Below, in pieces: positions 1 to 55,538 of a stretch of DNA of 55,538 nucleotides. Within the stretch, counting starts at the first letter, position 1, and each line of letters starts with the position of its first letter. Both the position numbers and the translations under genes were made by a program. Under the pieces are notes generated by a model. It saw only the letters and a program-made list of their open reading frames with translations. It was not told the origin of the DNA and did no database searches. Origin of the DNA: a virus (Duplodnaviria; Caudoviricetes); IMG/VR virus record IMGVR_UViG_3300009157_000023, positions 1 through 55,538 of that record; one strand, 5' to 3'.

Positions 1-23
1 CGCTGGGTAGTGGCGGACTTGGA

Positions 24-1427
24 TTGCTAGTAAATACTTATATTAAGATTGGTACACTCAGTTGGGATGCGGCCGCTTCAGATAGCATTGCAACCGGCGT
101 ACTCTCAGCCGGTGACTATGGGGATGTAACCATAGGCGCAGGGGCTTGGCGGGTGGAGGATGACTCACACACGCATGATAGTACAACCGTTGCAAATATG
201 ACGGGCAATGATATTGTCGTTCGCACAATTGACGGAACCAAGCTGGTAAATGCAACCCTTGATTCTTTGCAGATGAAAGATAATTCACTGAGCGGCACAG
301 ATTTGCATGATAGAACCGTTGCAGGCACTAAACTGGTAAACGGTACTCTTGACAGTCTGCAATTTAAAGACGCTTCGATTGCGGGCGGCGATATTGCTAC
401 ACGCGGAATAACAGCAACACAAATAGCCAATTCAGCGTTGGACAGCTTGCAAATCAAAGATGCAAGCATATCCGGGGCAGATATAGCAACCAGGGGAATC
501 ACCGCGACACAGATTGCAAATGCAACCCTTGACAGCACGCAAATAAATACAATCGGCTCTAATGACATTACAGACGGCCAGATAAAATATATTGATTTGA
601 ACCAGGTTGTCAAGGACACGCTGGCAAACAAACTAGACAAATCCGCTTTCAATGATAGCTTGAATAACAACCATACCTTTACCGGACAAAACAGATTTGT
701 CGATTCATTGATGTTCAAGGCGGGCGCACACAATACACTCGCTCGCATTGACGCAGTGGACGGCGCAGACCCTTATATTAGGCTATCCGTACATGATGAC
801 CATGATACGCCGGCGCTAAAGGCTGTGCTGGATATACATGATACTGTTTTGGCATTCCCCACCGACAACACCGTCGATATTGGCGCGGCTGCAGACAACA
901 GGCCTAAGGATTTACACCTGGCAGGGAAAGCCGTTGTAAATGACTCTGCGAGAATTGAAAAGTCTGCAAGAATTAAAGGCGAAGTAACAATTGGTGTAAC
1001 CGGCACAACCGTTGTCATGTCGACCGCCGGTAAAATAACGGCTGCGGACTCTGTTGCCGCTCTTGCATTGCGGACAGAGGGGCCGGGGCTGGTAAAGGGT
1101 GCTTTGACGGTGCGCGGTATGTCCGGCACGAATGCAGAGCAACCAGTAACATTAGGCGAGGCGGGCGACACGTTCGCCATTACGAAAAATGCCGTTGTGC
1201 TGACCGGTGACACGGGCGGGAATACTCTAGCAACGATAACCGGCGCGACTCAGGTAGGCATTTATGTTATCCGGTTCATTGATGACAAAGTAACCATAAC
1301 CGACACCGGGGACGGAACGGCGAACACAATTAATTTATCGGCTGCTTTCACTTCGAGCGCGAATGATATAATGACTTTATACTGGAACGGCACGTCATGG
1401 TTTGAGGCGTCAAGGAGCGTAAACTAA
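24..1427 (+). CDS. Fibre-like protein, probably the C-terminal half of the gene starting at 53920
   Basis: Frame is open back to position 3. Contains 10/30-aa repeats (GITATQIANxxLDSxQIKDASI) and shares motifs (IGxTGTTxxxSTAGKITxxDSxxA, KAVVNDSxRxEK, LRxEGPxLVKG) with the ORF at 53920. Confidence 0.75.
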   Translation: MLVNTYIKIGTLSWDAAASDSIATGVLSAGDYGDVTIGAGAWRVEDDSHTHDSTTVANMTGNDIVVRTIDGTKLVNATLDSLQMKDNSLSGTDLHDRTVAGTKLVNGTLDSLQFKDASIAGGDIATRGITATQIANSALDSLQIKDASISGADIATRGITATQIANATLDSTQINTIGSNDITDGQIKYIDLNQVVKDTLANKLDKSAFNDSLNNNHTFTGQNRFVDSLMFKAGAHNTLARIDAVDGADPYIRLSVHDDHDTPALKAVLDIHDTVLAFPTDNTVDIGAAADNRPKDLHLAGKAVVNDSARIEKSARIKGEVTIGVTGTTVVMSTAGKITAADSVAALALRTEGPGLVKGALTVRGMSGTNAEQPVTLGEAGDTFAITKNAVVLTGDTGGNTLATITGATQVGIYVIRFIDDKVTITDTGDGTANTINLSAAFTSSANDIMTLYWNGTSWFEASRSVN

Positions 1428-2131
1428 TGAAGGCGCTGATTATTATTTGCTTGCTCGTTTCTTTCGCCTTCCCGCAATCTTTCACCTGGCCGGTGAATAG
1501 CGGAGATCCCGGCGTTGCCAATCCAGCCCTTGCCGCGGCGAAGGATGCGGAGAATATAGCGAGAATAGAAGAGTTTTTGAGCCATGCCATACACGGCGAA
1601 GTCTATTACGTAAAAAGCCTGACTTTTTACTACACCGATTCATCTGAGGCGTTGCTGCTTTATTCGCGCAATTACTCTATTACGCGCTCGTTCGCTCATA
1701 TATTAGGCAATGATGCGGTGATAGATTCCTTTCTCGTTGATGCAGTTCATTTCACGGTGGACAGCTCAGAGGTTGTAATCGAAGAGGAAACAACGCCGCA
1801 TGGCCCCAGCGCACAGAAAAAGGAAACAGAAAAACGCTATACCGTGAGACAATTTGGGTTGACCTTGCCGAATATTGGCTTGCCGGAAAAATACCGAATA
1901 AGCATATCATTCCCCAAACCTGCGAAAGACGAAGTAAAGAAAGTTTATGCCGAAAAGGTGGTAAAGGTAAACGCCGATTATATCAAATATAAAGACAAGG
2001 CCGTAAAAGGTTCGGGCATCAAGGTCAAGGAAAGCGGAGGATCTCAAAAAACGAAAAAATTTGCCAATGATACCGCTTTCCGGAAATTCTGCTGGGGCGT
2101 GGTCAACGAAATAAATGAGATCAAAGAATAA
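1427..2131 (+). CDS. Exported protein of the tail/lysis operon (signal peptide)
   Basis: N-terminus MKALIIICLLVSFAFP|Q; start overlaps the fibre stop codon (TAATG). Confidence 0.6.
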   Translation: MKALIIICLLVSFAFPQSFTWPVNSGDPGVANPALAAAKDAENIARIEEFLSHAIHGEVYYVKSLTFYYTDSSEALLLYSRNYSITRSFAHILGNDAVIDSFLVDAVHFTVDSSEVVIEEETTPHGPSAQKKETEKRYTVRQFGLTLPNIGLPEKYRISISFPKPAKDEVKKVYAEKVVKVNADYIKYKDKAVKGSGIKVKESGGSQKTKKFANDTAFRKFCWGVVNEINEIKE

Positions 2132-2586
2132 TGGAAATCACTGATCAGCGCATGCTCAGTACTCCCGATTCTACCATCGGAGAGCTTACAATAGCAGAGA
2201 ATCCGTTTCGATGTTTCATTTTGGAGGACGGAAAGCACGAGCCGAAGATCCAGGGAAAGACAAGGATTCCGGCCGACCGCTATGAGATCATATTGGTTCG
2301 GGAAGGTGGGTTTTACGAACGGTATACAAAGAGGTTCGGCAAAGACCATCCTATTATGGCCATTATAGGCGTGAAAGGATTTACGCTGATTCGCATTCAC
2401 ATGGGGAACGATGTCGATGATACGGAAGGATGTCTTTTGGCCTGCTCAAACTATCAGCTATCCGATGGTAATTATATCGGCGGGTTCTCGGAGAGGGCTT
2501 ATTTGCCGCTTCACGCTATTGTGGTAGATGCAATAGAGAAAAAGAAAGAACGGGTTTTTATCACTGTGAAAGACGAAGGAGCCTGA
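2131..2586 (+). CDS. DUF5675-family putative endolysin/peptidase
   Basis: STIGEL..CFILED..KTRIPADRY..IRIHMGN...DTEGCLL pattern; lies in the lysis position before membrane proteins. Confidence 0.75.
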   Translation: MEITDQRMLSTPDSTIGELTIAENPFRCFILEDGKHEPKIQGKTRIPADRYEIILVREGGFYERYTKRFGKDHPIMAIIGVKGFTLIRIHMGNDVDDTEGCLLACSNYQLSDGNYIGGFSERAYLPLHAIVVDAIEKKKERVFITVKDEGA

Positions 2587-2991
2587 ATGCTACAGCCTGA
2601 TTTATCGGGGCCCTTGCCCGATCTGCGTTACCCGGACGGCAAACCCGGTCCGAACGATCCGCCAAAGCCTGAGCTAGTCCCGGCTTTGCCGGATTACGTT
2701 GCTCCGCCGCCTGCGTTGCCATGGTACCGCAAGCACTTTTTTAAACGCGCCATGGGTGGGTTGACCGTACTGGCTGCAGCCGCGTCCTTTGTGCCGGATC
2801 CGGTCGTTGCGGGGATCGGCAAGGCTTTGGGCGTTTTGTGCGGAGCGGTGATCGGCTGGGCGGGTATACAAGATGCTGTTGAAAAGAAAAAACAGGGAAT
2901 TGAGCAAACTGACAATCTAATCAATGCACTTGTGCAGCTTTTGAAAGCTCTCTTTGAGTTTTTCAAGGCAAAGAAAGGAGTGGTAAAATGA
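2587..2991 (+). CDS. Membrane protein, holin-like, Pro-rich N-terminus
   Basis: Two hydrophobic segments; adjacent to the endolysin. Confidence 0.5.
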   Translation: MLQPDLSGPLPDLRYPDGKPGPNDPPKPELVPALPDYVAPPPALPWYRKHFFKRAMGGLTVLAAAASFVPDPVVAGIGKALGVLCGAVIGWAGIQDAVEKKKQGIEQTDNLINALVQLLKALFEFFKAKKGVVK

Positions 2992-3344
2992 GGTTAGTTT
3001 TAATTATTCTAGTGCTGGCCATGCTGACTATGTTGGCGTTGCCGGTATTCGCGCAGGATGAAGGCGAGATCCCGCCTTTATTCGATCAGATCTTTGGTGC
3101 GCAATTCCTGACTGCTGTCGCGGCCATTATTGCGGCAACCAAGATCGTGCGAAATCTCGTACAGTTGAAGGGCTGGCCGGCTTTGGCGATAACCTTTGTA
3201 GTGTCCCTGGCCGTGGCTTTCTACCAGTATTACGCAATCATGGGTATCATCTATACCGCGTTGCTAGGTATTGTTGCCTTTGTCTGTGCAGCCGGTCTAT
3301 TTAAAGCGTCGAAGTTCGTTGGCTACAAAGTCGCAAGCGGTTAA
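2988..3344 (+). CDS. Putative holin, multi-TM, with signal-like N-terminus
   Basis: 3-4 hydrophobic helices, basic C-terminus, last gene of the late operon. Confidence 0.55.
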   Translation: MRLVLIILVLAMLTMLALPVFAQDEGEIPPLFDQIFGAQFLTAVAAIIAATKIVRNLVQLKGWPALAITFVVSLAVAFYQYYAIMGIIYTALLGIVAFVCAAGLFKASKFVGYKVASG

Positions 3345-3373: not shown

Positions 3374-3402
3374 AAAGCCCTGCAGAAATGCGGGGCTTTT
3401 TT
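3374..3402 (+). terminator. Rho-independent terminator ending the late operon
   Basis: aaagccctgca-gaaa-tgcggggctttttt. Confidence 0.85.
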
Positions 3403-6152: not shown

Positions 6153-6154
6153 AG

Positions 6155-6180
6155 AACAGGCCTTTAACGAGGCCTGTTTA
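6155..6180. terminator. Hairpin terminator between attP core and integrase end
   Basis: aacaggcct-ttaacg-aggcctgtt. Confidence 0.65.
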
Positions 6181-17808: not shown

Positions 17809-18378
17809 ATGAAAACCTTTAAAGTCTCCCCCATCGGCAAGCAATCTTGCCTCGTTATTTTCCTTTTTTTCTTCGTGATCTGGCTTTGTATGCTGTTCTT
17901 TTCCATGCCGGAAGTCTATGGCGCGGAGAGATTCACTTACTTTTCAGTAACCGGTAATAGCGTCAAGTTGACGTGGCAAAAAAACACTGAGCCTGATATG
18001 AAAGTCTATTTTATCCGGCAAATCGGCAAATCCGGGTGGGCTGTTGAACATCCGGATACAACATTGACCGCCAAATTGAGTGTGCCGAAATATTATACCA
18101 AGTTAGCTTTCTATCTGACCGCTGTTGATAGTACATTCATGGAATCCGCTCCCTCTGACACTGTTAGCGCAATATTTTGCCAGGAAGCCGGCCTGTTCTG
18201 CGATATTGACCGGGATAGCCTGGTTAACGTGGTGGATAAAGCGCTGTTCGCTAATGCCATGGGAGCATTGATAAGCGACTGGCAATTCAGCGAGAAAAAG
18301 GATTTCAATGGGGATGGAACAATAGATATTTTTGACAGACCGCTTTTGAATAAAAATATGGGGGCGATACTCCAATGA
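17809..18378 (+). CDS. Exported FN3-like plus dockerin-domain protein
   Basis: Hydrophobic N-terminus; VKLTWQKNTEPD...FYLTAVD...ESAPSDTVS (FN3); duplicated Ca-binding loops CDIDRDSLVNVVD and KDFNGDGTIDIFD. Confidence 0.8.
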   Translation: MKTFKVSPIGKQSCLVIFLFFFVIWLCMLFFSMPEVYGAERFTYFSVTGNSVKLTWQKNTEPDMKVYFIRQIGKSGWAVEHPDTTLTAKLSVPKYYTKLAFYLTAVDSTFMESAPSDTVSAIFCQEAGLFCDIDRDSLVNVVDKALFANAMGALISDWQFSEKKDFNGDGTIDIFDRPLLNKNMGAILQ

Positions 18379-39154: not shown

Positions 39155-39829
39155 ATGAGAATCGCATGTTTTGTCTTGATTCTTCTGGCTTTCCTCACCT
39201 GCCCGGTTTTCTCTCAGGAGAATTCCGTCCTGGTATATGGCAAGTCAGATATCGGAGTTTTGAAATACTCCAACAGAACCGGAACACCGGTCGATGCTAT
39301 TGCAGTCACCGCGGCACCATCAACGGAAGTGAATTACGAGTTTCTGGTTTCCTCTGTCAGTGGCACCGCTGCAACCGTGCGCGAAACAAACCTGGTTACG
39401 AAAAAACAGCAAACCAAGGTAATGACAACCGGTGCGGCCAATACAGCAGCCGTTTCCGGCTTTACCATTACGCTGAATGACACGGTGACAGCCGGCAATA
39501 TATTCCGCTTTTCCTATTCCTATTTTACGCCGATGAAAACAGATTCCACTGGAAAGGTGGCAACTGCCAAGTGGGAATCAGCGAGGGTCGATTCTATCTC
39601 AGCCCTGACCACTTCCCGGCAATCGATTGTTTTCACCGGTGATTTCGAGGACGGCATAACCGTCCTGGCCGATGTCAATTTGATGTTTCGTACGAACAGA
39701 ATAACCAACTGGATTTCTCTTGCAGCCGGAAACAGCATCTACATACCTATAAGGCATGTGGCCTCAGACACCTTTTATTGCATGGCGCAATCCGCAATCC
39801 CCAATGTGACGGTAATAAGAGGGAATTAA
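39155..39829 (+). CDS. Signal-peptide-bearing beta-rich protein in the head module
   Basis: MRIACFVLILLAFLTCPVFS|Q; Thr/Ala/Ser-rich. Confidence 0.65.
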   Translation: MRIACFVLILLAFLTCPVFSQENSVLVYGKSDIGVLKYSNRTGTPVDAIAVTAAPSTEVNYEFLVSSVSGTAATVRETNLVTKKQQTKVMTTGAANTAAVSGFTITLNDTVTAGNIFRFSYSYFTPMKTDSTGKVATAKWESARVDSISALTTSRQSIVFTGDFEDGITVLADVNLMFRTNRITNWISLAAGNSIYIPIRHVASDTFYCMAQSAIPNVTVIRGN

Positions 39830-39832
39830 AGA

Positions 39833-40117
39833 ATGTCAGAGATCGCCAAGCTTTTGATAGCAGTAGCGATCGGCCTAATTGGTAAGATAATATGGGACTG
39901 GCTGATTAATCTAAAGAACGCGCCGGCTATGAAGATGCACTCGGCGCCGTGTGAATATATCAAAATATTGGAAAAAGAACTGATTCATGTCAGGGAAGAG
40001 TTGGACAATATCAGAATCGAAATGGCCAGGCAACACGACGAAGCTATGAAGAGAATGGAAAGAATAGAAAACTTCATAATGAATGGTAAGCTAGACTGGA
40101 AGCTTAAAAACAATTAG
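39833..40117 (+). CDS. Single-TM coiled-coil protein
   Basis: N-terminal TM followed by a heptad region. Confidence 0.5.
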   Translation: MSEIAKLLIAVAIGLIGKIIWDWLINLKNAPAMKMHSAPCEYIKILEKELIHVREELDNIRIEMARQHDEAMKRMERIENFIMNGKLDWKLKNN

Positions 40118-42322: not shown

Positions 42323-43312
42323 ATGGCTTTATACTTCCGGTCCCCGGCCAATAGCCCTGTTTGCGGGTACGGCCGGGTGGCTACAAAACTCATCGACGCA
42401 CTGAAAAAATCTGATATCCCGCTCACGGATCACCCAAAGCGGAATGATATACAGATATGGTATGGACAGCCTTATAGAGTCCCGGAAGTAGCAAAATTAT
42501 ATAGGCGCAGGTGCGATATAAGCTTGATATACACGATGTTTGAAAGCACCTCTATTCCGGACGGCTGGATCGATCTGATTAATAAAAGAGAGGGTCTTTT
42601 AACTCCGTCAAAATGGTGTGCTGATTGGTTTAAGGCGTGCGGCGTCAAGGTCCCTGTTTACATCCTGCATCACGGAATCGATCCATTGGAATTTCCTTTT
42701 ATCGACCGAATGAAAAGAGATAGGGAGTATTTGACATTTTGCTGGCAAGGGGTCAATCCCAGAGACCGCAAAGGCTATAGCTTAGTAGATGAGGCGTTCA
42801 AAAAACTTCGACTCCCGAAAACGCGGCTGATATTAAAGGCGGTGCCTGTTAAATCGCCGCGTTTATATTTTCAGCTTAACGGCATAAAAGAGATTTGGGA
42901 TTGGTACACACAATCGCAAATGATACAGCTTTTTGGGGAAGCGGACGTAAGTTTGAATCCGACGTCCGGCGAAGGATTCGGGTTGATTCCGCTGGAACAC
43001 GCAGCAACCGGACTCTATACCATGGCAACGGCTTTCTCGGGTTGCCTTGAATATCTTGATGATTTAAAGCCGAATATGGCCGGCTTGAAGTGGAAACCAA
43101 AACCATCTTATTTCAACTCGCTCGGCGGGGATTATGGTTATGATGCGGCGCCGGATTTCAACCATCTTTGTGATTTCATGAGATGGTGCTCGGATAACCG
43201 GGATAAGGTGTATGAGAACGGGAAAAAGGCCAGTTCCGCTATTCACAAAAGATGGACCTGGCAAAGACCAATTGAGCAACTGAAAGAGATTTTAAAAAGC
43301 TATGCGTCCTGA
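42323..43312 (+). CDS. GT4-like (GT-B) glycosyltransferase
   Basis: GYG, YTMFES, TPSKW, HGID, RKG, GEGFGLIPLEHAATG. Confidence 0.9.
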   Translation: MALYFRSPANSPVCGYGRVATKLIDALKKSDIPLTDHPKRNDIQIWYGQPYRVPEVAKLYRRRCDISLIYTMFESTSIPDGWIDLINKREGLLTPSKWCADWFKACGVKVPVYILHHGIDPLEFPFIDRMKRDREYLTFCWQGVNPRDRKGYSLVDEAFKKLRLPKTRLILKAVPVKSPRLYFQLNGIKEIWDWYTQSQMIQLFGEADVSLNPTSGEGFGLIPLEHAATGLYTMATAFSGCLEYLDDLKPNMAGLKWKPKPSYFNSLGGDYGYDAAPDFNHLCDFMRWCSDNRDKVYENGKKASSAIHKRWTWQRPIEQLKEILKSYAS

Positions 43313-43643
43313 ATACCTGATATTAATTGCCATTTTCTTTGATGCTGCAGTAAACGGCGTGCAGGATAATATTAATTTCCACAAAAACGGTTTGCCGCTC
43401 AAAGATCTATGGCATATCCTGAAACAGATTGACCGCGTGCTATTGATTGCCATTGGCTTTATTGCCGCAAAAATCGAATGGAACTGGCTCAATATTATCG
43501 CCCTGCTGTTTTCCCTTGTTTTTGCAAAGCAGGTCTGGAGCTGGTTTTATAGAAACCATGTCGGGTTTTGGTACTGGTACGATGAACGCTTTAAAATAAA
43601 AACGTTCGAGTGGCTCGATAGGCTGACAGGATTAGATAAATAA
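43302..43643 (+). CDS. Membrane protein
   Basis: Multiple hydrophobic segments, DLWHILK. Confidence 0.55.
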   Translation: MRPEYLILIAIFFDAAVNGVQDNINFHKNGLPLKDLWHILKQIDRVLLIAIGFIAAKIEWNWLNIIALLFSLVFAKQVWSWFYRNHVGFWYWYDERFKIKTFEWLDRLTGLDK

Positions 43644-43654
43644 GGACCAATGCA

Positions 43655-43927
43655 ATGCAAAAAGTGTCAACTGAACAATATGTTACCGATAAAACATGGG
43701 AAGAATTTAGAAGTACTGGTTTGCTCCTTTTTATCAACCAGATTTTGCACGTTTTTGGCTGGGCTATTGTCATGCAAATAAACGGGAAAAATGAAATAAC
43801 AAAATGCTATCCTGCGCGGGTGAAGTTTAGAGGATTCGGCAATGATTCGGTGCAAAGAGAATACATGAAAATAACGCAATACCTCAAAGAAAATGCCGAT
43901 CAACTATTAAAAGAAGCTCAAGAATAA
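43655..43927 (+). CDS. Hypothetical phage protein
   Basis: WEEFRSTGLLLFINQILHVFGWAI..YPARVKFRGF. Confidence 0.6.
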   Translation: MQKVSTEQYVTDKTWEEFRSTGLLLFINQILHVFGWAIVMQINGKNEITKCYPARVKFRGFGNDSVQREYMKITQYLKENADQLLKEAQE

Positions 43928-44463
43928 TGCCATCCTCACAAATCGAAAATATATCCACTATCACGCAGTGGATCGCCGGACTCAATCCCCGCTCGATTTT
44001 AGATGTCGGGGTAGGTTTCGGCAAATACGGCGTGCTGGCCCGCGAATATACCGATATCCGCAACGGGCGGTATTGGCGCAAAGACTGGAAAACCATCATC
44101 GATGGTATTGAAATATTCACCAAATACAAAAATCCCTGCTGGGATATCTACAATAGTATCTTCGAAGCCGATGCGCGCGAGATGGTTCAAAGCCTGCGCA
44201 ATTATGAAGTTATATTGCTTTGCGATATCCTGGAACACTTTGAAAAAGGAGAGGCACTGGCTCTTTTGCATAGGTGCCGCACTATAGCCACAAAAGCCGT
44301 TATCGTTTCTACTCCGCACGGCAAATACGAACAGGGCGCGGCATTCGGCAATGAACACGAAAGGCATTTGTCAGAATGGTTCGTGTGTGATTTCGATCAA
44401 GCAGATAGTTTTGAATCCAGCGAAGATTGTTTATCGGCGATTTATTTGAAGGAGCAAAAATAA
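43927..44463 (+). CDS. Class I SAM-dependent methyltransferase (glycan-type)
   Basis: SILDVGVGFGKYG, DGIE, DILEH, STP, HLSEW. Confidence 0.88.
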   Translation: MPSSQIENISTITQWIAGLNPRSILDVGVGFGKYGVLAREYTDIRNGRYWRKDWKTIIDGIEIFTKYKNPCWDIYNSIFEADAREMVQSLRNYEVILLCDILEHFEKGEALALLHRCRTIATKAVIVSTPHGKYEQGAAFGNEHERHLSEWFVCDFDQADSFESSEDCLSAIYLKEQK

Positions 44464-45056
44464 TGTACACCGCAAAGCAGGTAAGCGTTTGTGTTCCCCT
44501 GGGAGAAAACCGGGATGCCGAAATTAAGCGCCTAATGGATGCTATCCTTGCCCAAACAGTTCAACCGCTTGAGACCATTGTCGAAAAGGGATCATCCACC
44601 TATGGCAACCGAAACAAGGCCTGGAAAAAGGCCAAGGGAAAAGTTATCTGGTTCCTGGACTCTGATATTATCCCACAGCCGGACGCACTGGAACGGGCGC
44701 TTGAGCTTTTTACCGATGACATTGCCGGGGTTGAGTGCAATATCATTGGTACTATTACCCGCGTTTATGAATGGGGTTTCATGTCCGGGCATATCCTGTA
44801 TACGAAGGCAGCGGTGAAAAAGGTCGGCGGGTTTGATGAGAATTTCAAAGACTGGCGAGGGGACACTGATTTAGCCTGGTCGATTCTGGACGCCGGCGGG
44901 AAAATTGTTTATCAGCCGTTGTCGATCGCTTTCCACCCGGGCGGGTCGAATACCAAGGTAGACATGGAAAAAGAAAAACTGCTGTACGATAAACATCCCG
45001 AGCGCTATAGACAAGCGCGCGCGGGTAATAAACTTCATTGCTTTATAAAGGACTAG
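44463..45056 (+). CDS. GT2-family glycosyltransferase
   Basis: VSVCVP, RNKAW, FLDSD, VGGFDENF, DTDL. Confidence 0.88.
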   Translation: MYTAKQVSVCVPLGENRDAEIKRLMDAILAQTVQPLETIVEKGSSTYGNRNKAWKKAKGKVIWFLDSDIIPQPDALERALELFTDDIAGVECNIIGTITRVYEWGFMSGHILYTKAAVKKVGGFDENFKDWRGDTDLAWSILDAGGKIVYQPLSIAFHPGGSNTKVDMEKEKLLYDKHPERYRQARAGNKLHCFIKD

Positions 45057-49363: not shown

Positions 49364-49786
49364 ATGCCTCTGGCCTATGAAATACAGATCGAGGGAACAA
49401 ATCTTTATACCTCTGATTATGGCTATTTTACTATTGTGAAAAATGGCATAGTAGGACTAGCAGACTCGCCGCCTCTCAGGCAGGAATTGATTTTCGTTCC
49501 GGGCAAAGATTATCCCTATGTTTTCGGAGGGGATTATGGGGAAAAGCATATTATCGTTACCGGCCTGATGGTTGGAACGACCAGGGCTCTTTTAGACGGA
49601 TATATCTCAAGTCTAAAAGGATTATTGTCTACTTATATCGATATCGACGCCACGCTGATATTCGGCGGAAATACAGAAATCACTTACGAGGTGAGGTGGG
49701 ATGGAACCTGTAAGGTTGCCTATATAGGATCTACCCTCATAAGCACCAAAGCGCTTGTCACTATCGGCTTGCTCCAGGTGGGCTAA
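49364..49786 (+). CDS. Distal tail protein (Dit)
   Basis: Follows the TMP; VPGKD..YGEKHI motif. Confidence 0.7.
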   Translation: MPLAYEIQIEGTNLYTSDYGYFTIVKNGIVGLADSPPLRQELIFVPGKDYPYVFGGDYGEKHIIVTGLMVGTTRALLDGYISSLKGLLSTYIDIDATLIFGGNTEITYEVRWDGTCKVAYIGSTLISTKALVTIGLLQVG

Positions 49787-51657
49787 TGGCCGTCATAAAA
49801 AACATATATGGCCTTTATATCTACAACCAGGCAAATGATTACTGGTTAGGCGATATCGCTCTTGCTTATGACAAGCAGCCCGGCGCAAGCAATTACGGAT
49901 TAATCTCAGGCGAAGTAGTTGAAGAAATAAACGGCGAGCAATCGCTTACATTCCAGGCGGATTACAGGACAGATTACGTCGCTGTTTTGGTGGTGGGCAA
50001 TTGTGTGCGTTTGCAGGACCGGGTTGCTGATACTTATGTGCTTTACCGGATAAAGAGAGTATCCCGCTTTCGCAGTGGGCAAAAAGTTATTATCGAGTGT
50101 TTTTGTGAGCACATAAAATACGATCTTTTGAGCCGCGTTATTCCAACAGCGAAAAGATTTGTCCAGGTCACGCCGGCCACGGTGCTTGCCTATATCCTTA
50201 CCTTTTCTGACGCTTTTGTTTCCGGCACAGTCACGCCTACTACGGCGATTGATTTTGATATCGATTATGAAAGCTGCATGGAAGCGATCAAGCGCCTGGC
50301 CGAAAAAACCGGCTATGAGTGGGATGTCATAGCAGACGGCGGGGCAAACCACAAGAAAGTGAATATCCGCAACCTGGATTTCATCGCCAACGGCACCGGC
50401 GGGGCGTGTGAAGTCGCTTACGGGGTCAATCTTTTGTCGCTCAAACATACTTTGTCGCTTGACGATGGTTTTGCCAGCAGAATTGTGCCACGCGGTGGGG
50501 CGGCCATGGCCGGACAAAGAAAAAACAGCGTTGATATTTCTTCATATATGAACCCGGTTGCTATGGATGTTGTAGGCGCGATGTTCATAATCACTGCCAA
50601 TACCGGGCGGTGGATAAAACTCGATACAGATCAGCTTTTGACACAAAATGACAGCTTGAATGGCTGGTATTTATATTTCGAGGGATATACTCTTTTGATC
50701 ACCGACAGCCTAAAAACAGTAGGGGATTATGATCAACTGCAAACACTGATTACCTTCCCGGACAACAGCCTGGCAGACATGAAGGCGATAATTTTCCAGA
50801 GCCTTACCGTTCCTTCGCCTTATGTGCCGGACGCAAAGGCTGAAACCGATTATCTTAGGATGGAAAAAGTATTCCGGAACGAGGATATCGCTGATGTGCT
50901 GAATGCAGCAGGACCGGCTGGAATCTCAGATTTATCAGGTGTCTATACCGATGGTTTGTGCGAGGGCTGGGAACTGATCGACACTCCAACTGTCTCTGAG
51001 ACAGTCGATCCGGATTTTGTCAGGATAGGAACAAAGTCGCAAAAGGTAATAGCGACAGATGGCCAGGGGATCAAAAGGCCTGTTTATACGGGATCATCGG
51101 CCAGTGTCAGCTATTACGTCTGGATATATATCGAAAGCATCGATCCCAGCGCAAAACTTGTGACAAAAATAAAGGTGGGGGCAACAGAGTATTTTCCGAC
51201 AAACAAAACAACCGGCGAAGATGAGGCGGTTTACAACGGCACCGGCTGGCGGCAGATCATTGTAGAAGGCGGGGTGTGCGCGGAAGGAACTACCTCACAC
51301 GACCTTGAAATATTGGCGGACGGCGGGGCTTGTACATTTTATGTAGACGCGGTGTGCGTGGTAATGTCAGAGTACATTAACGACGAAGATAAGTTTTTCG
51401 CCTACGATAGCAGGGCGGATTTGTGGAAGCTGGCACAGACAGAACTTTTGAAGTGCAACGCTCCAAAAGTTACTTATGATGTGAGTATGGTCGATTTGTG
51501 GCAGCGCGACCGTACAACTTACATCACCAAGCTATTCAAAACCGGGGATGACATTACCATTGTAGACGCCGCACTCGGAATTAATGCAACGGTGCGGGTG
51601 ACGAAAAAGAGCTGGCAACTGACCAAGCCATGGGAGTGCAGGATCGATGTCGAATGA
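49786..51657 (+). CDS. Baseplate hub/Tal-like protein with an inserted carbohydrate-binding-like domain
   Basis: EEINGEQSLTF, CEHIKYDL, YGVNL, SRIVPRG, PKVTYDV..GDDITIVD; insert GWE..GTKSQK..W..FYVDAV. Confidence 0.8.
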   Translation: MAVIKNIYGLYIYNQANDYWLGDIALAYDKQPGASNYGLISGEVVEEINGEQSLTFQADYRTDYVAVLVVGNCVRLQDRVADTYVLYRIKRVSRFRSGQKVIIECFCEHIKYDLLSRVIPTAKRFVQVTPATVLAYILTFSDAFVSGTVTPTTAIDFDIDYESCMEAIKRLAEKTGYEWDVIADGGANHKKVNIRNLDFIANGTGGACEVAYGVNLLSLKHTLSLDDGFASRIVPRGGAAMAGQRKNSVDISSYMNPVAMDVVGAMFIITANTGRWIKLDTDQLLTQNDSLNGWYLYFEGYTLLITDSLKTVGDYDQLQTLITFPDNSLADMKAIIFQSLTVPSPYVPDAKAETDYLRMEKVFRNEDIADVLNAAGPAGISDLSGVYTDGLCEGWELIDTPTVSETVDPDFVRIGTKSQKVIATDGQGIKRPVYTGSSASVSYYVWIYIESIDPSAKLVTKIKVGATEYFPTNKTTGEDEAVYNGTGWRQIIVEGGVCAEGTTSHDLEILADGGACTFYVDAVCVVMSEYINDEDKFFAYDSRADLWKLAQTELLKCNAPKVTYDVSMVDLWQRDRTTYITKLFKTGDDITIVDAALGINATVRVTKKSWQLTKPWECRIDVE

Positions 51658-52021: not shown

Positions 52022-53908
52022 ATGGCTAATGTACAGCACAACAGTAAAACCGGATCCGACCTGCATGCAGCGGAGCGGGAATACGCCGGCAATCCGCACG
52101 GCAATCTGTCTGGATTGAAAGGGCAGTACTGCAAAAGTACGTCCGGCGCGACAAGCGGCAAAAGGTATGTCAATACCGATGGCACCACCGGCACGCCGAC
52201 GACGAATTGGACGGAAATCTTCGATCCGGCTGCGTTAGGGACACATGAAAGCGCGGCAAGCGCACATGACGCTGCAAATATTGATATTGCTGATGCCGGA
52301 GATTATTTCACGGGTAGTACAACTGAAGCGGCCCTGCAAGAGCTCGCTTCCGGCGCAGTATCACCAGATATAGCAGCTCACGTCAATGCAGACGGCGCAG
52401 GGGGCTCATCGGCTCCGGCAGCGAATAAGGTACATAACGCTGCAGCGGTTGATATAGAAGATGACGGTGATTTTATCACTGCAACCGATGTAGAAGGTGC
52501 GCTTCAGGAAATTGCCGAAGCCGGCTTGGACTCAAAATATTACACCGAAGGAATCGAGGACTGGTTTCCGGCAAAGCAGTGCTGGATCCGCAACACTGAG
52601 ATGAACAATAATCTTGCTCTTTCAGCGGGCACGGAGATAACTGTTGCCTCAGTCGACACCGGCGCCAATACCATAACCCTTTCCTGGTTGCCGTACAAAG
52701 AAACAATAATGAGTCCGGTCGAGGGGCAGGAGTGGGCGCTTTTGAACCTGGACCTTTATTCCGGAACAGCCGATCCGGATATCGGCGGCACCTACACCGA
52801 TCTTCTGAAAATCACCGGTGGCGTCTATGCCACAAAAGTTTTGAATTATACCGTGATTATGGGTGCGGAGGGAAACTGGCAGGCCGGACACCGGGTTTTG
52901 CTGTACAACATGTTCGAGATGGGTTGGACTTTTGGTAATTCAGGCTCTCCGATTATTTCTACAGCTGGATCTGGCTGGCGGTCAACTTATGTTGCGCCTG
53001 GCCCGATATTCCGGCATTCCAATGGCAATTACATAATGCTCGTTACCGGGGTGGACGGTTCGGGCGTGTGGAGGGTAGGCGCCTTTCAGGCGACGCCGGC
53101 TGAATTTCCTGATACCTGGACTGTCATGAACTCAGATGCCGCTATCTTCGTCCCCCAGGGTGGCACCTGGTGCCACTCACGGCTGGCTATTGTCAATAAT
53201 ATATACAAGCTGGATGCGGAAGATAGGTATATAGGATATTTTTGGGGCAAAAATTCAGGCGGTAGACTTACCACCGGCTGGGCGAAATTCGATGAGGATT
53301 TCGGTAATATAGAATATTCCACACTAGAATTGGTTTCCCGTACCTCTTCTTACGATCATCATTTTCCGACTGTGGTCCGGTACGGCGGGGTATTCCGTAT
53401 TTCGTATAATGTCGATACGGCCCCAGGCTCGCCGTCTTACGATTATTGGGACCAGAGCATGTACGAGGCTTTCTCGCTCACGCCGGAAGGTCCGTTTACC
53501 AATCCGGCGCTTATCCTTGCTATGGGGTTGACAAATGACGGGACCTTCCGCTCTTCGCATGTGACCGATCTTAACTATTTTATTTTCAGGAACCGGCTGT
53601 ATGGCCTTTTGAACGGCACCTCGCGCTACAGAACATCGGGCAACCGGGCGAACAGTATGTGCGGCCTAATGTACTGGGATGAACGCAAAGACACGCCGGC
53701 ATGGGTGGAAGATAAACGAAACCCGATCTTCATTAATCCCCTTTATGCCAGCGCGAGTTTGTGGGGTGCACAATACGAGTGGGCCTCTGATCATTTCGGC
53801 GGCCGGCAGGTTTTCATACGCAAGGGCAATACGCTTTATGTTTTCACGAATTGCAATAACGGCACAGATTCCTATAAAATCATGTATTTATCATATCAAC
53901 TTCCGTGA
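52022..53908 (+). CDS. Tail spike/receptor-binding protein with C-terminal glycoside-hydrolase-like beta-propeller
   Basis: N-terminal HxAxxIDIxDxGDxxTxxxxExALQE repeats; C-terminal SPII/NPAL/NPIF blade motifs. Confidence 0.65.
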   Translation: MANVQHNSKTGSDLHAAEREYAGNPHGNLSGLKGQYCKSTSGATSGKRYVNTDGTTGTPTTNWTEIFDPAALGTHESAASAHDAANIDIADAGDYFTGSTTEAALQELASGAVSPDIAAHVNADGAGGSSAPAANKVHNAAAVDIEDDGDFITATDVEGALQEIAEAGLDSKYYTEGIEDWFPAKQCWIRNTEMNNNLALSAGTEITVASVDTGANTITLSWLPYKETIMSPVEGQEWALLNLDLYSGTADPDIGGTYTDLLKITGGVYATKVLNYTVIMGAEGNWQAGHRVLLYNMFEMGWTFGNSGSPIISTAGSGWRSTYVAPGPIFRHSNGNYIMLVTGVDGSGVWRVGAFQATPAEFPDTWTVMNSDAAIFVPQGGTWCHSRLAIVNNIYKLDAEDRYIGYFWGKNSGGRLTTGWAKFDEDFGNIEYSTLELVSRTSSYDHHFPTVVRYGGVFRISYNVDTAPGSPSYDYWDQSMYEAFSLTPEGPFTNPALILAMGLTNDGTFRSSHVTDLNYFIFRNRLYGLLNGTSRYRTSGNRANSMCGLMYWDERKDTPAWVEDKRNPIFINPLYASASLWGAQYEWASDHFGGRQVFIRKGNTLYVFTNCNNGTDSYKIMYLSYQLP

Positions 53909-53919: not shown

Positions 53920-55538
53920 ATGAAAAAGGTTCAAGCGGTCTTGTTTTGTCTTTTATTCTTCGCTGCGTCTTTTGTTTTTGCGCAAGAGGTGCGGATGTCG
54001 AATTATTCGCCGTGGGCCCTGGTGAACGATTCCCTTATCACCAGGCACAGTATACCGATCAAGGTCCCTGGTATGCGGTGCTCTGGCACGCTCAAGGTGG
54101 ACGGAGTCATTACCTCGAACTCCGATATTGTGCTGAATGGCACGGTAACGACCAAGCTCACCGCCTCAGATTCGGCGGTTGTAATTAAGGGCTTGCGGGT
54201 TGAGGGTCCATCCAGGCAAAAAGGCCAGGTTGAGATCGGTACCACCGGCACAACGGCTATTATTTCGACGGCCGGCAAGATCACTACGCCGGATTCAATT
54301 GCCGCTTATAATTTCAGAGCGGAAGGCGCTGGCCGGTTTAAAGGCGGAATCTTGGTGGGAACAACCGGTACAACTGCAGCGATTTCCAATGTCGGCAAGA
54401 TCACCTCTCCGGACAGTATTGTCACCGGCAAAGGCCTGCGCTCGGAAGGTCCTGCCCTGGTCAAGGGCGATTTGGAAGTACGTCTAAAGGGCGTTATCAA
54501 TGATTCGCTGCGAGTGGAAAAATCAACTTTGCTCAAGCAAAAACTGGTTGTTATGGATTCCTTGCGGGTTGAAGAATCCGTATTGCTGAAACAAAAGGCT
54601 GTTGTTAACGACAGCTTACGGGTGGAAAAAACAGCCATTATTAAAGGCGATATTGCGGCAGGTGGGAAAATTGCTATCGATGATTCTTTCAGGGTTGAGA
54701 AAACAACTCTTTTAAAAGACGATGTGACTATTAAAAGCACTAAAGATTTTTCTGTTGGAGCCGTAACTTGGACAGATGATGATTCGTTGAATGGGGCTAT
54801 TATTGCCTATATGTCAATAGATAGTTCAAAAATTGACACTTCAAGGTTTGATCAACATATTAGAAAATTAATACGTCAATTTACAGTTCCAGGATTAACC
54901 GATGCTCAAGTTCGTACTATAATTTCAGATTCAGCATGGATAAATGTAGCAGGCGACACCGCATATATTCAAACTGCTAAAATAGCAAAATTATTTGGGC
55001 TGTACAATACGGGTACAAGCAAATTAGATGGGGAAATAATTGCAAATGGTAAAATTACAAGCAACGATTCTCTAGCGAATATACTCGGGATTCGCGCAAA
55101 TGGCAATTTACGCGCCAAAGGAAACACAACGCTTGGCGCAACCGCAACGCCGGTTTATATTTCAAGCAGTGGACTGGTAAGTATAAATACATTAACCCCC
55201 ATGATAGCGGGCTTGCATATCAGTGAGGGTACTTTGCCAGCATTTAGCGCACTCAAGGGCCTGCGTCTGGGCAATCCAGATGCGGCAACGGGAGCAGGTG
55301 CAATGGCATTTTCACCGGTTGCATTGTGGAAAGCAAGCGGCTGGCATACTGACGCTGGCGGTGCGGCTGATAGCTTGCGGGCAATTGTAGGACTGCAACC
55401 GGTATCTGGAGCGGCTGTGGCAACCAGTAAATTATCATTTCAATTTTCAACCAATACAGGGGCGCTTGCGGAGAAAGCATCTTTTTCAAGCGCTGGTGTT
55501 TTTACTATCGCAGGATATGGAAGTTTCGGCGGCGCTAC
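53920..55538 (+). CDS. Signal-peptide-bearing fibre-like protein, open to the window end (absent from ORF track)
   Basis: Manual translation: MKKVQAVLFCLLFFAASFVFA|QEV..., 539 codons without a stop, with DSLRVEK repeats. Confidence 0.85.
   Translation, partial: MKKVQAVLFCLLFFAASFVFAQEVRMSNYSPWALVNDSLITRHSIPIKVPGMRCSGTLKVDGVITSNSDIVLNGTVTTKLTASDSAVVIKGLRVEGPSRQKGQVEIGTTGTTAIISTAGKITTPDSIAAYNFRAEGAGRFKGGILVGTTGTTAAISNVGKITSPDSIVTGKGLRSEGPALVKGDLEVRLKGVINDSLRVEKSTLLKQKLVVMDSLRVEESVLLKQKAVVNDSLRVEKTAIIKGDIAAGGKIAIDDSFRVEKTTLLKDDVTIKSTKDFSVGAVTWTDDDSLNGAIIAYMSIDSSKIDTSRFDQHIRKLIRQFTVPGLTDAQVRTIISDSAWINVAGDTAYIQTAKIAKLFGLYNTGTSKLDGEIIANGKITSNDSLANILGIRANGNLRAKGNTTLGATATPVYISSSGLVSINTLTPMIAGLHISEGTLPAFSALKGLRLGNPDAATGAGAMAFSPVALWKASGWHTDAGGAADSLRAIVGLQPVSGAAVATSKLSFQFSTNTGALAEKASFSSAGVFTIAGYGSFGGA

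What the first reader, a model, noticed from the sequence alone, without database searches (positions are those of the whole stretch)
53920..55538. Terminal fibre gene has a Sec signal peptide and is packed with host-type O-glycosylation sequons: possible exported, host-glycosylated virion component
Seen: the last large gene of the tail module begins MKKVQAVLFCLLFFAASFVFA|Q. By hand count it has ~12 D-(S/T)-(A/I/L/V/M/T) motifs in 539 aa, and its apparent continuation (24-1427) has ~12 more in 467 aa. The motifs are built into the repeats (NDSLRVEK, PDSI, LDSLQ). Signal-less virion proteins have few: ~1 in 628 aa (52022), ~2 in 623 (49786), ~3 in 971 (capsid) and ~3 in 1050 (TMP). Known: this motif is the Bacteroidota general protein O-glycosylation sequon, used on extracytoplasmic proteins, and Gln at +1 after signal peptidase I is an FCB hallmark. 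Tailed-phage fibres normally fold and assemble in the cytoplasm. Inference: the phage routes its fibre through Sec so the host machinery decorates it with host glycan, then attaches it in the periplasm or at lysis. Alternatively it is displayed on the infected cell surface.
Basis: partly seen in the sequence, partly recalled or inferred. Interest (0 to 1): 0.88.

Follow-up and report, generated by a model that had tools for sequence, protein, structure and literature searches.

The report
Phage tail-fibre protein with export signal
A temperate phage encodes, between its tail and lysis genes, a three-chain fibre protein that carries a bacterial export signal and as many sugar-attachment motifs as its likely hosts' own exported proteins, so it probably matures outside the cytoplasm, which is unusual for a phage fibre.

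Summary
The gene at 53920 starts with a canonical Sec/signal-peptidase-I leader (MKK, 17 uncharged residues, V-F-A|Q).

- **One gene:** the two pieces join into a single 1014-aa frame if one base at the record's ends is counted once.
- **Conserved signal:** 57 of 118 full-length relatives have a signal by my rule, and 50 of those 57 have Gln at +1.
- **Fibre type:** a three-copy model gives a staggered triple beta-helix (0.84 against 0.00 for controls). Relatives carry tailspike modules.
- **Motif excess tracks export:** about 2.3x in exported proteins of this and other phages, and 2.4x in two of three sampled Bacteroidota genomes. It is about 1.0 in non-exported proteins and 1.2x in E. coli.

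Much of the excess sits in conserved repeats. The host phylum is unresolved, with one Cloacimonadota hint. Virion attachment is untested, and in one relative the gene lies after the lysis genes. Export is well supported, glycosylation is plausible, and a role as a virion part is open.

The parts
53920..55538 (+). N-terminal piece of the fibre gene (539 codons, runs off the record's end)
   Evidence: 12 motifs against 2.6 expected
53920..53982 (+). Sec/SPI-type signal peptide, 21 codons, predicted cleavage VFA|Q
   Evidence: my rule; modelled as a helix over residues 2-24; aligned in all 10 sequences of A1
54433..54765 (+). 18-residue NDSLRVEK-type repeats (residues 172-282). A beta-helix in the monomer model; a staggered three-chain beta-helix in the three-copy model.
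   Evidence: weak Bactofilin/LbH matches below cut-off
55117..55524 (+). Copy of a widespread fibre domain (consensus SPxLxxxGxGWKTDATAASQxV..PVQGAA). Here Q is replaced by D, which gives D-S-L.
1..1427 (+). C-terminal piece of the same gene (frame from base 3, 474 codons plus stop)
   Evidence: 12 motifs against 4.5 expected
180..602 (+). Pentapeptide-repeat-like region with a 30-residue super-repeat that carries TLDSLQ
   Evidence: PDB DotG/IcmE 7e-12; Pentapeptide_4 at 4.6e-4, below cut-off
1427..2131 (+). Second signal-bearing protein (234 aa); its start overlaps the fibre gene's stop
   Evidence: no family found
2131..2586 (+). DUF5675 protein, a probable endolysin catalytic domain
   Evidence: Pfam 1e-18; fused to PG_binding_1 in a 107-member, 96% viral cluster
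2587..3344 (+). Two small membrane proteins (134 and 118 aa; the second has leader VFA|Q plus 3 hydrophobic segments), presumed lysis partners
   Evidence: the function is inferred from position
3374..3399 (+). Strong terminator-like hairpin (11 pairs plus a T run) that ends the late operon
52022..53908 (+). Signal-less 628-aa protein just upstream (11-base gap), a candidate conventional receptor-binding protein
   Evidence: no family or PDB match; absent from relative G001
49786..51657 (+). Tail tip protein (Prophage_tail family); marks the conserved end of the tail module
   Evidence: 42% identical in G001

Best explanation
The gene encodes a fibre-type protein of about 1014 aa that is exported rather than assembled in the cytoplasm.

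**Shown from sequence**
- It has a canonical cleavable Sec/signal-peptidase-I leader with Gln at +1.
- It is built from fibre parts: 18-residue beta-helix repeats, a pentapeptide-type repeat block, a widespread fibre domain and a C-terminal knob.
- It lies in the late operon, in the variable cassette between the tail tip gene and the endolysin.

**Modelled**
- Three chains intertwine into a staggered beta-helix.

**Inferred**
- The chains cross the inner membrane unfolded late in infection.
- The leader is removed, exposing Gln (pyroglutamate in a Q-rule host).
- The trimer folds in the periplasm.
- Some of its 24 D-S/T-hydrophobic sites receive the host's O-glycan, if the host has the Bacteroidota-type system.

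The protein then stays in the envelope until holin and endolysin open the cell.

**Where it ends up**
I lean towards an accessory fibre that works outside the cytoplasm, free or bound to the envelope. Possible jobs are binding or clearing surface glycan around the lysing cell. I put this at about 45%. Docking to finished virions after lysis is the less likely branch, at about 25-30%.
For: **Signal**
- Searches show the leader.
- It aligns in all 10 sequences of alignment A1, the window's protein and 9 relatives.
- Of 127 relatives examined, 9 do not start with Met and were dropped. Of the remaining 118, 57 carry a signal by my rule, and 50 of those 57 have [AGSTC]|Q.

**Fibre nature**
- Three copies of residues 22-330 score 0.84, against 0.00 for the best of 3 controls.
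- The partner's pLDDT is at least 86, and the runs agree in at least 96% of contacts.
- In the tool's calibration the mark was reached by 20 of 30 proteins solved as same-chain pairs and by 1 of 23 solved as single chains.
- My own alignment and three copies differ from that calibration.
- The closest contacts run i to i+6 across residues 172-265.
- Signal-bearing relatives carry tailspike modules: P0007 a right-handed Beta_helix (2.2e-10) and P0010 a Peptidase_G2 auto-cleaving chaperone domain (32.2 bits against a cut-off of 25).
- The knob of P0003/P0007 also occurs in four signal-less proteins in phage loci, of 140-460 aa: L004, L005, L008 and L009.

**Operon**
- There is an 11-base gap after the 628-aa gene, and the stop overlaps the next gene's start.
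- No strong terminator occurs before 3374-3399.

**Variable cassette**
- Relative G001 keeps Tal at 42% identity but has a single signal-less 890-aa gene in place of the 628-aa gene, the fibre and the 234-aa gene.

**Motif**
- The excess is specific. In the 57 signal-bearing relatives D[ST]H is 446 against 175.9 expected (2.54x). Controls are flat: E[ST]H 0.81, N[ST]H 1.04, D[ST]-nonH 0.88.
- The 61 signal-less relatives give 1.04.
- Nine other signal-bearing ORFs of this phage have 12 against 5.1 expected (P = 0.0065). The other 71 ORFs have 36 against 35.3.
- Four other phage loci: 15 exported ORFs have 45 against 19.9 (P = 9e-7), and 79 others have 57 against 62.4.
- Host baseline, exported against non-exported: 2.44 and 1.17 (G007), 2.39 and 0.61 (G010), 0.72 and 0.89 (G019), and 1.23 and 0.79 in E. 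coli K-12.
- Veith 2022 (PMC8729774, abstract and passages read) reports that only proteins exported beyond the cytoplasm are glycosylated at this motif.

**Against a fixed tail part**
- In L029 the homologue lies after the holin-like and endolysin-like genes.
- L029 and L030 share only this protein's N-domain (66% over 134 aa) within 9 kb either side.
Against: - No export, cleavage or glycan has been measured, and SignalP was not run.
- The excess leans on conserved repeats. Without the DSLRV-type repeat the median per-protein ratio is 1.2 in signal-bearing relatives (n = 35) against 0.75 in signal-less ones (n = 56). Four signal-less proteins with at least two such repeats still reach 1.74x.
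- One of the three Bacteroidota samples shows no excess. The samples are small (85-160 kb each) and use naive ORF calls.
- The host may not be Bacteroidota:
  - The only taxon-named portal relative is a Candidatus Syntrophosphaera MAG.
  - 0 of 401 sampled Bacteroidota genomes hold a portal relative.
  - The tRNA-like attachment core is at best 91% identical over 47 bases in that sample.
  - 39 of 80 ORFs have a Shine-Dalgarno-like core upstream, against 21% in shuffles. By my recollection that is atypical for Bacteroidota.
- A place in the receptor-binding cassette of the late operon (window and L002) is just what a true virion fibre would have.
Confidence: 0.45

Rival explanations
1. The protein is a true virion tail fibre. 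It is routed through Sec, glycosylated by the host in the periplasm, and docks by its conserved mature N-terminal domain onto finished tails when lysis mixes the compartments.
For: - It sits in the variable cassette between the tail tip gene and the lysis genes, inside the late operon.
- L002 has the same position after its tail genes.
- It models as a trimeric beta-helix.
- Relatives carry tailspike modules.
- The mature N-terminal region is conserved among relatives whose later parts differ.
- Its motif density is at or above that of host-type exported proteins.
- In-vitro addition of fibres to fibreless T4 particles is known (recalled, not from a call), so assembly after lysis is physically possible.
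Against: - I know of no precedent, and three literature searches found no exported tail fibre.
- In L029 the homologue follows the lysis genes.
- L029 and L030 share the N-domain but no other protein within the flanks.
- Relatives of this phage do without it: 0 of 5 related records match, and G001 ends its tail module with a signal-less 890-aa protein.
- This phage also has a signal-less 628-aa candidate receptor-binding protein.
Confidence: 0.25
2. The protein is exported but not glycosylated. D-S-L is a structural signature of this fibre fold: a corner of the 18-residue beta-helix coil and part of the 30-residue pentapeptide-type repeat. The host lacks, or does not apply, a Bacteroidota-type O-glycosylation system.
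For: - 11 of the 24 sites lie in three repeat families.
- 22 of 57 signal-bearing relatives carry DSLRV-type repeats, and the excess falls to a median of 1.2 without them.
- Signal-less proteins with the repeat still reach 1.74x (n = 4).
- There is a Cloacimonadota hint for the host, and Shine-Dalgarno use is above chance.
- One Bacteroidota sample shows no excess in its exported proteins.
Against: - Non-homologous exported proteins of this phage and of four other phage loci show the same excess of about 2.3x. Non-exported proteins show none.
- The excess is specific to D, S/T and a hydrophobic third residue.
- At one site of a widespread domain, the window and its five nearest relatives have D-S-[LV]. 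The other 124 of 130 aligned copies lack it, and most have Q there. This may be a single evolutionary event.
Confidence: 0.2
3. The hydrophobic N-terminus is not a cleaved secretion signal. It may be an uncleaved membrane anchor. Alternatively, the functional product may start at the internal Met 26, which is preceded by a GAGG-like core, and assemble in the cytoplasm like an ordinary fibre.
For: - Met 26 lies five residues after the predicted cleavage site, and an AGAGG sits upstream of it.
- No signal predictor was run.
Against: - The leader is conserved with a canonical -3/-1 pattern and Q at +1 in 50 of 57 signal-bearing relatives.
- An internal Met within 12 residues of the cleavage site occurs in 8 of 50, against 11.8% expected (P = 0.23), so a second start is not a family feature.
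Confidence: 0.07

Closest known systems
Trimeric beta-helical tail fibres and tailspikes of tailed phages (triple beta-helix stalks, auto-cleaving chaperone domains, C-terminal knobs)
   Same: - It models as a three-chain staggered beta-helix.
- It is modular and sits after the tail tip gene.
- Relatives carry Beta_helix and Peptidase_G2 modules.
- The knob of relatives P0003/P0007 is shared with signal-less phage proteins.
   Different: - It has a conserved cleavable Sec leader.
- No curated fibre family matches above its cut-off.
- Presence in virions is unknown.
Phage-encoded signal-peptide proteins that obey the Bacteroidetes Q-rule in Porphyromonas gingivalis prophages (Matrishin 2023, PMC10367356; passages read)
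   Same: Phage genes with SPI leaders that expose Gln, read there as adaptation to the host's secretion system.
   Different: [quoted passage not shown] Here the protein is a large trimeric fibre-type protein in the tail-to-lysis cassette.
Substrates of the general O-glycosylation system of Bacteroidota (motif D-(S/T)-(A/I/L/V/M/T); Veith 2022, PMC8729774)
   Same: The protein is predicted to be exported, and its motif density is at or above that of exported proteins in two sampled Bacteroidota genomes.
   Different: It is encoded by a phage, the host phylum is unresolved and no glycan has been shown.
Lambda Lom and Bor, and PblA/PblB of Streptococcus phage SM1 (recalled, not from a call)
   Same: Phage late-region genes whose products end up in or on the host envelope. 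PblA/PblB are tail-fibre-like and also act on the cell surface.
   Different: - Lom and Bor are small outer-membrane proteins, not fibres.
- PblA/PblB have no Sec leader and reach the surface through lysis.
Mycobacteriophage virion glycosylation by phage-encoded glycosyltransferases (recalled; seen only in search listings)
   Same: Glycan on phage structural proteins. This phage also carries two glycosyltransferases and a methyltransferase-like gene inside its tail module.
   Different: That route is cytoplasmic and encoded by the phage. The route proposed here is periplasmic and encoded by the host.

Membership tests
Sec / signal peptidase I signal peptide | Positively charged n-region, an uncharged hydrophobic h-region of about 10-20 residues, and small residues at -3 and -1 | tested here: met
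   MKK, 17 uncharged residues, V-F-A|Q. It passes my hydrophobicity and charge rule. SignalP was not available.
Sec / signal peptidase I signal peptide | Not a lipoprotein (SPII) signal: no lipobox before a Cys | tested here: met
   The only Cys in the leader is preceded by L-F, not by [ASG].
Sec / signal peptidase I signal peptide | Experimental cleavage and export | not testable with these tools
   Needs cell fractionation or N-terminal mass spectrometry.
Bacteroidetes Q-rule substrate | [quoted passage not shown] | tested here: met
   VFA|Q here. 50 of 57 signal-bearing relatives show it, as do at least 3 other ORFs of the window: 2988, 33845 and 39155.
Bacteroidetes Q-rule substrate | The host belongs to a high-Q lineage and has a glutaminyl cyclase | tested here: inconclusive
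   - A portal relative is named Candidatus Syntrophosphaera.
- 0 of 401 Bacteroidota genomes hold a portal relative.
- Bochtler 2018 gives Candidatus Cloacimonas 24% and Ignavibacterium 77%.
Bacteroidota general O-glycosylation substrate | The D-(S/T)-(A/I/L/V/M/T) motif on a protein exported beyond the cytoplasm | tested here: met
   24 motifs, 4.6x and 2.7x over composition. Export is predicted only.
Bacteroidota general O-glycosylation substrate | The host carries the glycosylation system, and the glycan is attached | not testable with these tools
   The host is unknown. Glycoproteomics is needed.
Phage tail fibre / tailspike | Homotrimer with a beta-helical shaft | tested here: met
   The three-copy model scores 0.84 against 0.00 for the best control, with staggered contacts over residues 172-265. 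This is a model, not a measurement.
Phage tail fibre / tailspike | Match to a curated fibre or spike family | tested here: inconclusive
   - Only sub-threshold Pfam matches: Phage_depo_C 16.1 bits against 25, Bactofilin and LbH.
- PHROGs matches are to families of unknown function.
- No match in 50,697 phage records.
Phage tail fibre / tailspike | Present in the virion | not testable with these tools
   Needs virion proteomics or electron microscopy.
Type IX secretion cargo | C-terminal sorting domain | tested here: not met
   No Por_Secre_tail-type match in Pfam or NCBIfam for the C-terminal piece.
Moron / lysogenic-conversion gene | Own promoter and terminator, set apart from the late operon | tested here: not met
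   - 11-base gap upstream and an overlapping stop/start downstream.
- Only a 9-of-12 promoter-like site at 53851-53880.
- First strong terminator at 3374.
- The scan covers sigma-70-type promoters only.
Pentapeptide repeat protein (C-terminal piece, residues 60-200) | Tandem five-residue repeats that match the family profile | tested here: inconclusive
   Pentapeptide_4 at 20.6 bits against a cut-off of 38. PDB DotG/IcmE repeat region at 7e-12.

The most novel reading that the evidence does not exclude
A family of tailed-phage fibres is matured through the host's Sec pathway. The chains are exported, trimmed to pyroglutamate and coated with the host's own O-glycan at sequons built into each coil of the shaft. 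Only then are they added to tails, as the cell lyses. The virion would then wear host glycan on its receptor-binding organ without encoding the machinery.
Probability: 0.2. Interest if true: 0.9.

Novelty: new variant of a known kind. Interest (0 to 1): 0.64.

Why it matters
Tail fibres are taken to fold and join the tail in the cytoplasm. A conserved family of fibre-type proteins with cleavable export signals would mean that some phages build part of their host-recognition or exit apparatus in the periplasm.

There the host's folding, pyroglutamate and O-glycosylation systems can act on it. That bears on three things:
- how phages of FCB-group bacteria (gut, oral and digester communities) recognise and leave their hosts;
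- how stable their particles are, and how they look to host defences or to an animal's immune system;
- how fibre genes are annotated, since a signal peptide is usually read as "not structural".

The side result could also be useful if it holds at scale. The glycosylation motif is about 2.4 times over-represented in exported proteins of two of three sampled Bacteroidota genomes, but not in E. coli. That could become a simple genomic marker for the glycosylation system and for phage-host matching.

Tried and rejected
- **Second start at Met 26 (a signal-less isoform).** An internal Met within 12 residues of the cleavage site occurs in 8 of 50 relatives, against 11.8% expected (P = 0.23). It is not a family feature.
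- **Lipoprotein or type IX cargo.** There is no lipobox and no C-terminal sorting domain.
- **Close relatives.** None in IMG/VR with the single protein. None in 50,697 phage records. None in metagenome contigs with alignment A3. The tail tip protein also has no close relative in IMG/VR.
- **Alignments too diverse for the locus finder.** I followed with smaller alignments.
- **Host identification.**
  - The terminase is uninformative, with best hits at 44-53% identity to phages of Firmicutes.
  - The integrase search gave no named hits.
  - No tRNA gene was called.
  - The tRNA-like core matches 121 of 401 Bacteroidota genomes, at best 91% over 47 bases and never identically.
- **AlphaFold2 monomer of the N piece.** Mean pLDDT was 54.7, too low for a fold search, so none was run.
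- **Protein-atlas search of the N piece.** The best score was 0.89, and all clusters were viral and unnamed. This is a lead only.
- **Supplementary tables** of the papers were not opened. Those of Matrishin 2023 and Veith 2022 may list phage-encoded or fibre-like glycoproteins that I could not see.
Full report
**What the window is.** The 55,538-base window is a whole IMG/VR virus record. It is classed as linear, with a CheckV completeness of 100.
- It is a temperate siphovirus-type genome. It carries a tyrosine integrase at 6225-7391 on the minus strand, next to a tRNA-like 3' fragment. ARAGORN calls no tRNA gene there.
- It has a large terminase and a portal.
- The tail genes are a 1050-aa gene I read as the tape measure by size and position, a 140-aa protein, and a 623-aa tail tip protein of the Prophage_tail family (1e-9, above cut-off).
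- After these come a 124-aa and a 628-aa protein and then the gene in question.

**The observation.** The ORF starts at ATG 53920, eleven bases after the stop of the 628-aa gene. It runs off the record's end after 539 codons.
- *The leader.* Its N-terminus is MKKVQAVLFCLLFFAASFVFA|QE: two lysines, 17 uncharged residues, V at -3, A at -1 and Gln at +1. There is no lipobox.
- *Against composition.* In 2000 shuffles per protein, the N piece has 12 against 2.6 expected, and no shuffle reaches 12. The C piece has 12 against 4.5 (P = 0.0015). The signal-less virion proteins lie at or below expectation.
- *Context.* Eleven of the 24 sites lie in three repeat families: NDSLRVEK-type, GKITxPDS[IV] and TLDSLQxKD. 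Thirteen are in unique contexts.

**One gene or two.** An exact circular join of the record is out of frame and stops after residue 542. If the identical last and first base is counted once, the join gives a single 1014-codon frame that ends at the natural stop at 1427. The C piece repeats the N piece's motif families. It also shares a GDVTIxGGAWxVEDDSHxH block with P0001, a 913-aa relative that has signal, repeats and this block in one ORF. I read the two pieces as one gene cut by the record's ends. The one-base discrepancy is unexplained.

**What kind of protein.**
- *Family matches.* No curated family matches above its cut-off. There are weak Bactofilin and left-handed-beta-helix matches over residues 173-282, a weak pentapeptide match and a weak Phage_depo_C match at the C-terminus. 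PHROGs matches are to families of unknown function.
- *Pentapeptide block.* Residues 60-200 of the C piece match the pentapeptide-repeat region of DotG/IcmE by sequence (7e-12).
- *Monomer model.* An AlphaFold2 monomer is poor overall (mean pLDDT 54.7). It does make residues 2-24 a helix and residues 173-282 a run of short strands with a six-residue period.
- *Three-copy model.* Three copies of residues 22-330 give a confident complex. The score is 0.84 against 0.00 for the best of three controls. The partner's pLDDT is at least 86, and the runs agree in at least 96% of contacts. In the tool's calibration the mark was reached by 20 of 30 proteins solved as same-chain pairs and by 1 of 23 solved as single chains. 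My own alignment and three copies differ from that calibration. The tightest contacts link residue i of one chain to i+5 to i+7 of the next across residues 172-265, which is the pattern of an intertwined triple beta-helix. The pass may partly reflect likeness to solved fibres.
- *Modules in relatives.* P0007 (1294 aa) has a right-handed Beta_helix domain (2.2e-10). P0010 has the Peptidase_G2 auto-cleaving chaperone domain (32.2 bits against a cut-off of 25). The C-terminal knob of P0003 and P0007 recurs in four signal-less proteins in phage loci, of 140-460 aa: L004, L005, L008 and L009.

So this is a fibre- or spike-type protein by architecture.

**The signal is a family trait.**
- An exhaustive profile-free search found 126 representatives at E of 0.001 or better: 19 at 1e-10 or better and 2 at 1e-30 or better.
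- I examined these together with P0002, 127 in all. Nine do not start with Met and were set aside.
- Of the other 118, 57 carry a signal by my rule and 61 do not. Of the 57, 50 have a small residue followed by Gln at the end of the hydrophobic stretch.
- In alignment A1, of the window's protein and nine of the closest relatives, all ten leaders align.
- The signal-less relatives mostly match only the widespread domain at residues 400-535, often in several copies per protein.

**Genomic position.**
- *In the window.* The gene is packed into the late operon. Its stop overlaps the start of a second signal-bearing gene (234 aa). Then come a DUF5675 protein, two small membrane proteins and the first strong terminator at 3374-3399. 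DUF5675 is fused to a peptidoglycan-binding domain in a 107-member, 96% viral cluster, so I read it as the endolysin.
- *L002.* A 29.8-kb viral contig has the homologue P0004 plus another signal-bearing gene directly after its tail genes.
- *L029.* The homologue P0081 and a second signal-bearing gene lie after the holin-like and endolysin-like genes, just before genes on the other strand.
- *L030.* The homologue sits in a run of five or six signal-bearing genes.
- *Shared parts.* L029 and L030 share the N-terminal 134 residues of this protein at 66% identity. No other protein within 9 kb on either side is shared at E below 1e-4.
- *Closest phages.* Twelve viral contigs share the portal at 55-62% identity. 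The fibre has no match in any of the five longest (0 of 5).
- *Relative G001.* This complete provirus keeps the tail tip protein (42% identity), a signal-bearing head-module protein (40%) and a glycosyltransferase cassette (59-64%). In place of the 628-aa gene, the fibre and the 234-aa gene it has one signal-less 890-aa gene followed by a lysozyme-like gene.

The gene therefore belongs to the exchangeable cassette between the tail tip and lysis genes. Both receptor-binding proteins and cargo genes are found in that place.

**Is the motif excess more than repeats?**
- *Across relatives.* The 57 signal-bearing proteins hold 446 motifs against 175.9 expected (2.54x; D-S-h 3.79x, D-T-h 1.51x). Control patterns are flat: E[ST]h 0.81, N[ST]h 1.04, Q[ST]h 1.04 and D[ST]-non-h 0.88. 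The 61 signal-less relatives give 213 against 205 (1.04x).
- *Weight of the repeats.* Much of the excess rides on the DSLRV-type repeat, present in 22 of 57 signal-bearing and 5 of 61 signal-less proteins. Without it the median per-protein ratio is 1.2 (n = 35) against 0.75 (n = 56). Four signal-less proteins with at least two such repeats still reach 1.74x.
- *One site in the widespread domain.* The window and its five nearest relatives have D-S-[LV] at one position. The other 124 of 130 aligned copies lack that motif, and most have Q there. This may be a single evolutionary event.
- *Unrelated exported proteins.* In the window, nine other ORFs with a signal by the same rule hold 12 motifs against 5.1 expected (P = 0.0065), and 71 other ORFs hold 36 against 35.3. 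In L002, L029, L030 and G001 together, 15 exported ORFs hold 45 against 19.9 (P = 9e-7) and 79 others hold 57 against 62.4.
- *Baseline from cellular genomes.* I applied the same scripts to 85-160 kb from each of three unnamed Bacteroidota genomes and to 150 kb of E. coli K-12. The table gives observed over expected, with the number of proteins.

| Genome | Exported | n | Non-exported | n |
|---|---|---|---|---|
| Bacteroidota G007 | 2.44 | 28 | 1.17 | 84 |
| Bacteroidota G010 | 2.39 | 9 | 0.61 | 55 |
| Bacteroidota G019 | 0.72 | 17 | 0.89 | 39 |
| E. coli K-12 | 1.23 | 27 | 0.79 | 67 |

So an excess of about 2.3-2.4x in exported proteins is a pattern of some Bacteroidota proteomes, and this phage's exported proteins share it. 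The samples are small, the ORF calls are naive, and one of the three genomes does not show the pattern.

**What the papers say.**
[quoted passage not shown] It found 257 sites in 145 proteins of P. gingivalis.
- Bochtler 2018 (PMC5837995, abstract and passages read) gives an average of 71% Gln at +1 in Bacteroidetes. It states that the rule does not hold for the whole FCB group, with Candidatus Cloacimonas at 24% and Ignavibacterium at 77%.
- Matrishin 2023 (PMC10367356, passages read) already noted five P. gingivalis prophage genes of unknown function that obey the Q-rule.
- Three searches for exported or signal-bearing tail fibres found none. Supplements were not opened.

**The host is not settled.**
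- *For a high-Q, FCB-type host.* Gln at +1 occurs in at least four of the window's leaders and in 50 of 57 relatives. One weak chromosomal homologue lies in a Flavobacteriales MAG (26% identity).
- *Against Bacteroidota specifically.* Three portal relatives carry a source name, two of them only "bacterium"; the one named to a taxon is a Candidatus Syntrophosphaera MAG, which I place in Cloacimonadota. None of 401 sampled Bacteroidota genomes has a portal relative at 1e-20. The tRNA-like attachment core is at best 91% identical over 47 bases in those genomes. Shine-Dalgarno-like cores precede 39 of 80 ORFs, against 21% in shuffles. That Bacteroidota rarely use such sites is my recollection, not a call.

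**Reading.**
- *Export is the best-supported step.*
- *Glycosylation is plausible.* The density, the specificity and the link to export fit. It depends on a host system I could not check, and the repeats offer a structural explanation for much of the excess.
- *Where the protein ends up is open.* Its cassette position, trimeric shaft and conserved mature N-domain fit a fibre that docks on virions after lysis. The post-lysis position in L029, the N-domain shared between otherwise unrelated neighbourhoods, its absence from close relatives, and the presence of a signal-less 628-aa candidate receptor-binding protein all fit an accessory exported fibre that acts in or from the envelope.
- *My odds.* About 45% for an accessory exported fibre, 25% for a virion fibre that joins after lysis, 20% for exported but unglycosylated, and 7% for not a cleaved signal.

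**Novelty.** Phage genes with Q-rule leaders are in print, and so is virion glycosylation by phage-encoded enzymes. A conserved family of trimeric fibre- or spike-type phage proteins with cleavable Sec leaders and host-like sequon density did not appear in my three searches. I rate it a new variant of a known kind. If the virion branch proves true, it would be new in kind.

Noticed in passing
window 42323-45056: A glycosylation cassette lies inside the tail module, between the 160-aa gene at 41833 (which I take to be the tail tube gene, by position only) and the gene at 45060. It holds a GT4/GT1-type glycosyltransferase (42323-43312), a small membrane protein, a methyltransferase-like gene (43927-44463) and a GT2 glycosyltransferase (44427-45056; PF00535 at 2.6e-11). 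It is conserved in relative G001 at 59-64% identity, higher than the tail tip protein at 42%. It recalls the virion-glycosylating enzymes of mycobacteriophages, or it could remodel a host glycan.
   Followed up: partly
window 39155-39829; G001 39399-40112: A signal-bearing protein (leader VFS|Q, 3 motifs against 1.0 expected) sits in the head-to-tail part of the structural module. It is conserved with its leader in G001 (40% identity). This is a second exported protein among the virion genes.
   Followed up: partly
window 17809-18378: A signal-bearing 189-aa protein has a dockerin type I domain (9.2e-5, 23.0 bits against a cut-off of 22.9) and 4 motifs against 0.7 expected.
   Followed up: no
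window 55537-55538 and 1-2: The record's ends join into one open fibre frame only if the identical last and first base is counted once. This suggests a circular genome with a one-base trimming error, or a gap whose length is 2 modulo 3.
   Followed up: partly
window 6090-6160 and 6225-7391 (-): A tRNA-like 3' fragment (T-arm and acceptor end) lies next to the integrase and is probably the attachment core. ARAGORN calls no tRNA gene there. The best match in 401 Bacteroidota genomes is 91% over 47 bases.
   Followed up: partly
window 2131-2586: DUF5675 sits where relative G001 has a lysozyme-like gene. In a 107-member viral cluster it is fused to a peptidoglycan-binding domain. It is probably an uncharacterised endolysin catalytic domain.
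   Followed up: partly
window 55117-55524; proteins P0011, P0013, P0049, P0057 and others: A widespread domain of about 100 residues (SPxLxxxGxGWKTDATAASQxV..PVQGAA) has no Pfam match. It occurs in up to five matched copies per protein (P0011 and P0057), mostly in signal-less fibre-like proteins.
   Followed up: partly
loci L034-L051 (Bacteroidota G007, G010, G019) and L052-L054 (E. coli): The O-glycosylation motif is about 2.4 times over-represented in predicted exported proteins of two of three sampled Bacteroidota genomes. It is 1.2x in E. coli and is not over-represented in the non-exported proteins of any of the four. This could be a genomic marker of the system and is worth a proteome-scale test.
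   Followed up: partly
locus L030 3492-13942: Another viral contig carries five or six signal-bearing, mostly Q-rule genes in a row, with motif excesses of 3-10 observed against 0.9-3.8 expected. One of them shares the N-domain of the fibre family.
   Followed up: no
It has no Pfam match. It may be a fusion with scaffold or protease parts.
   Followed up: no
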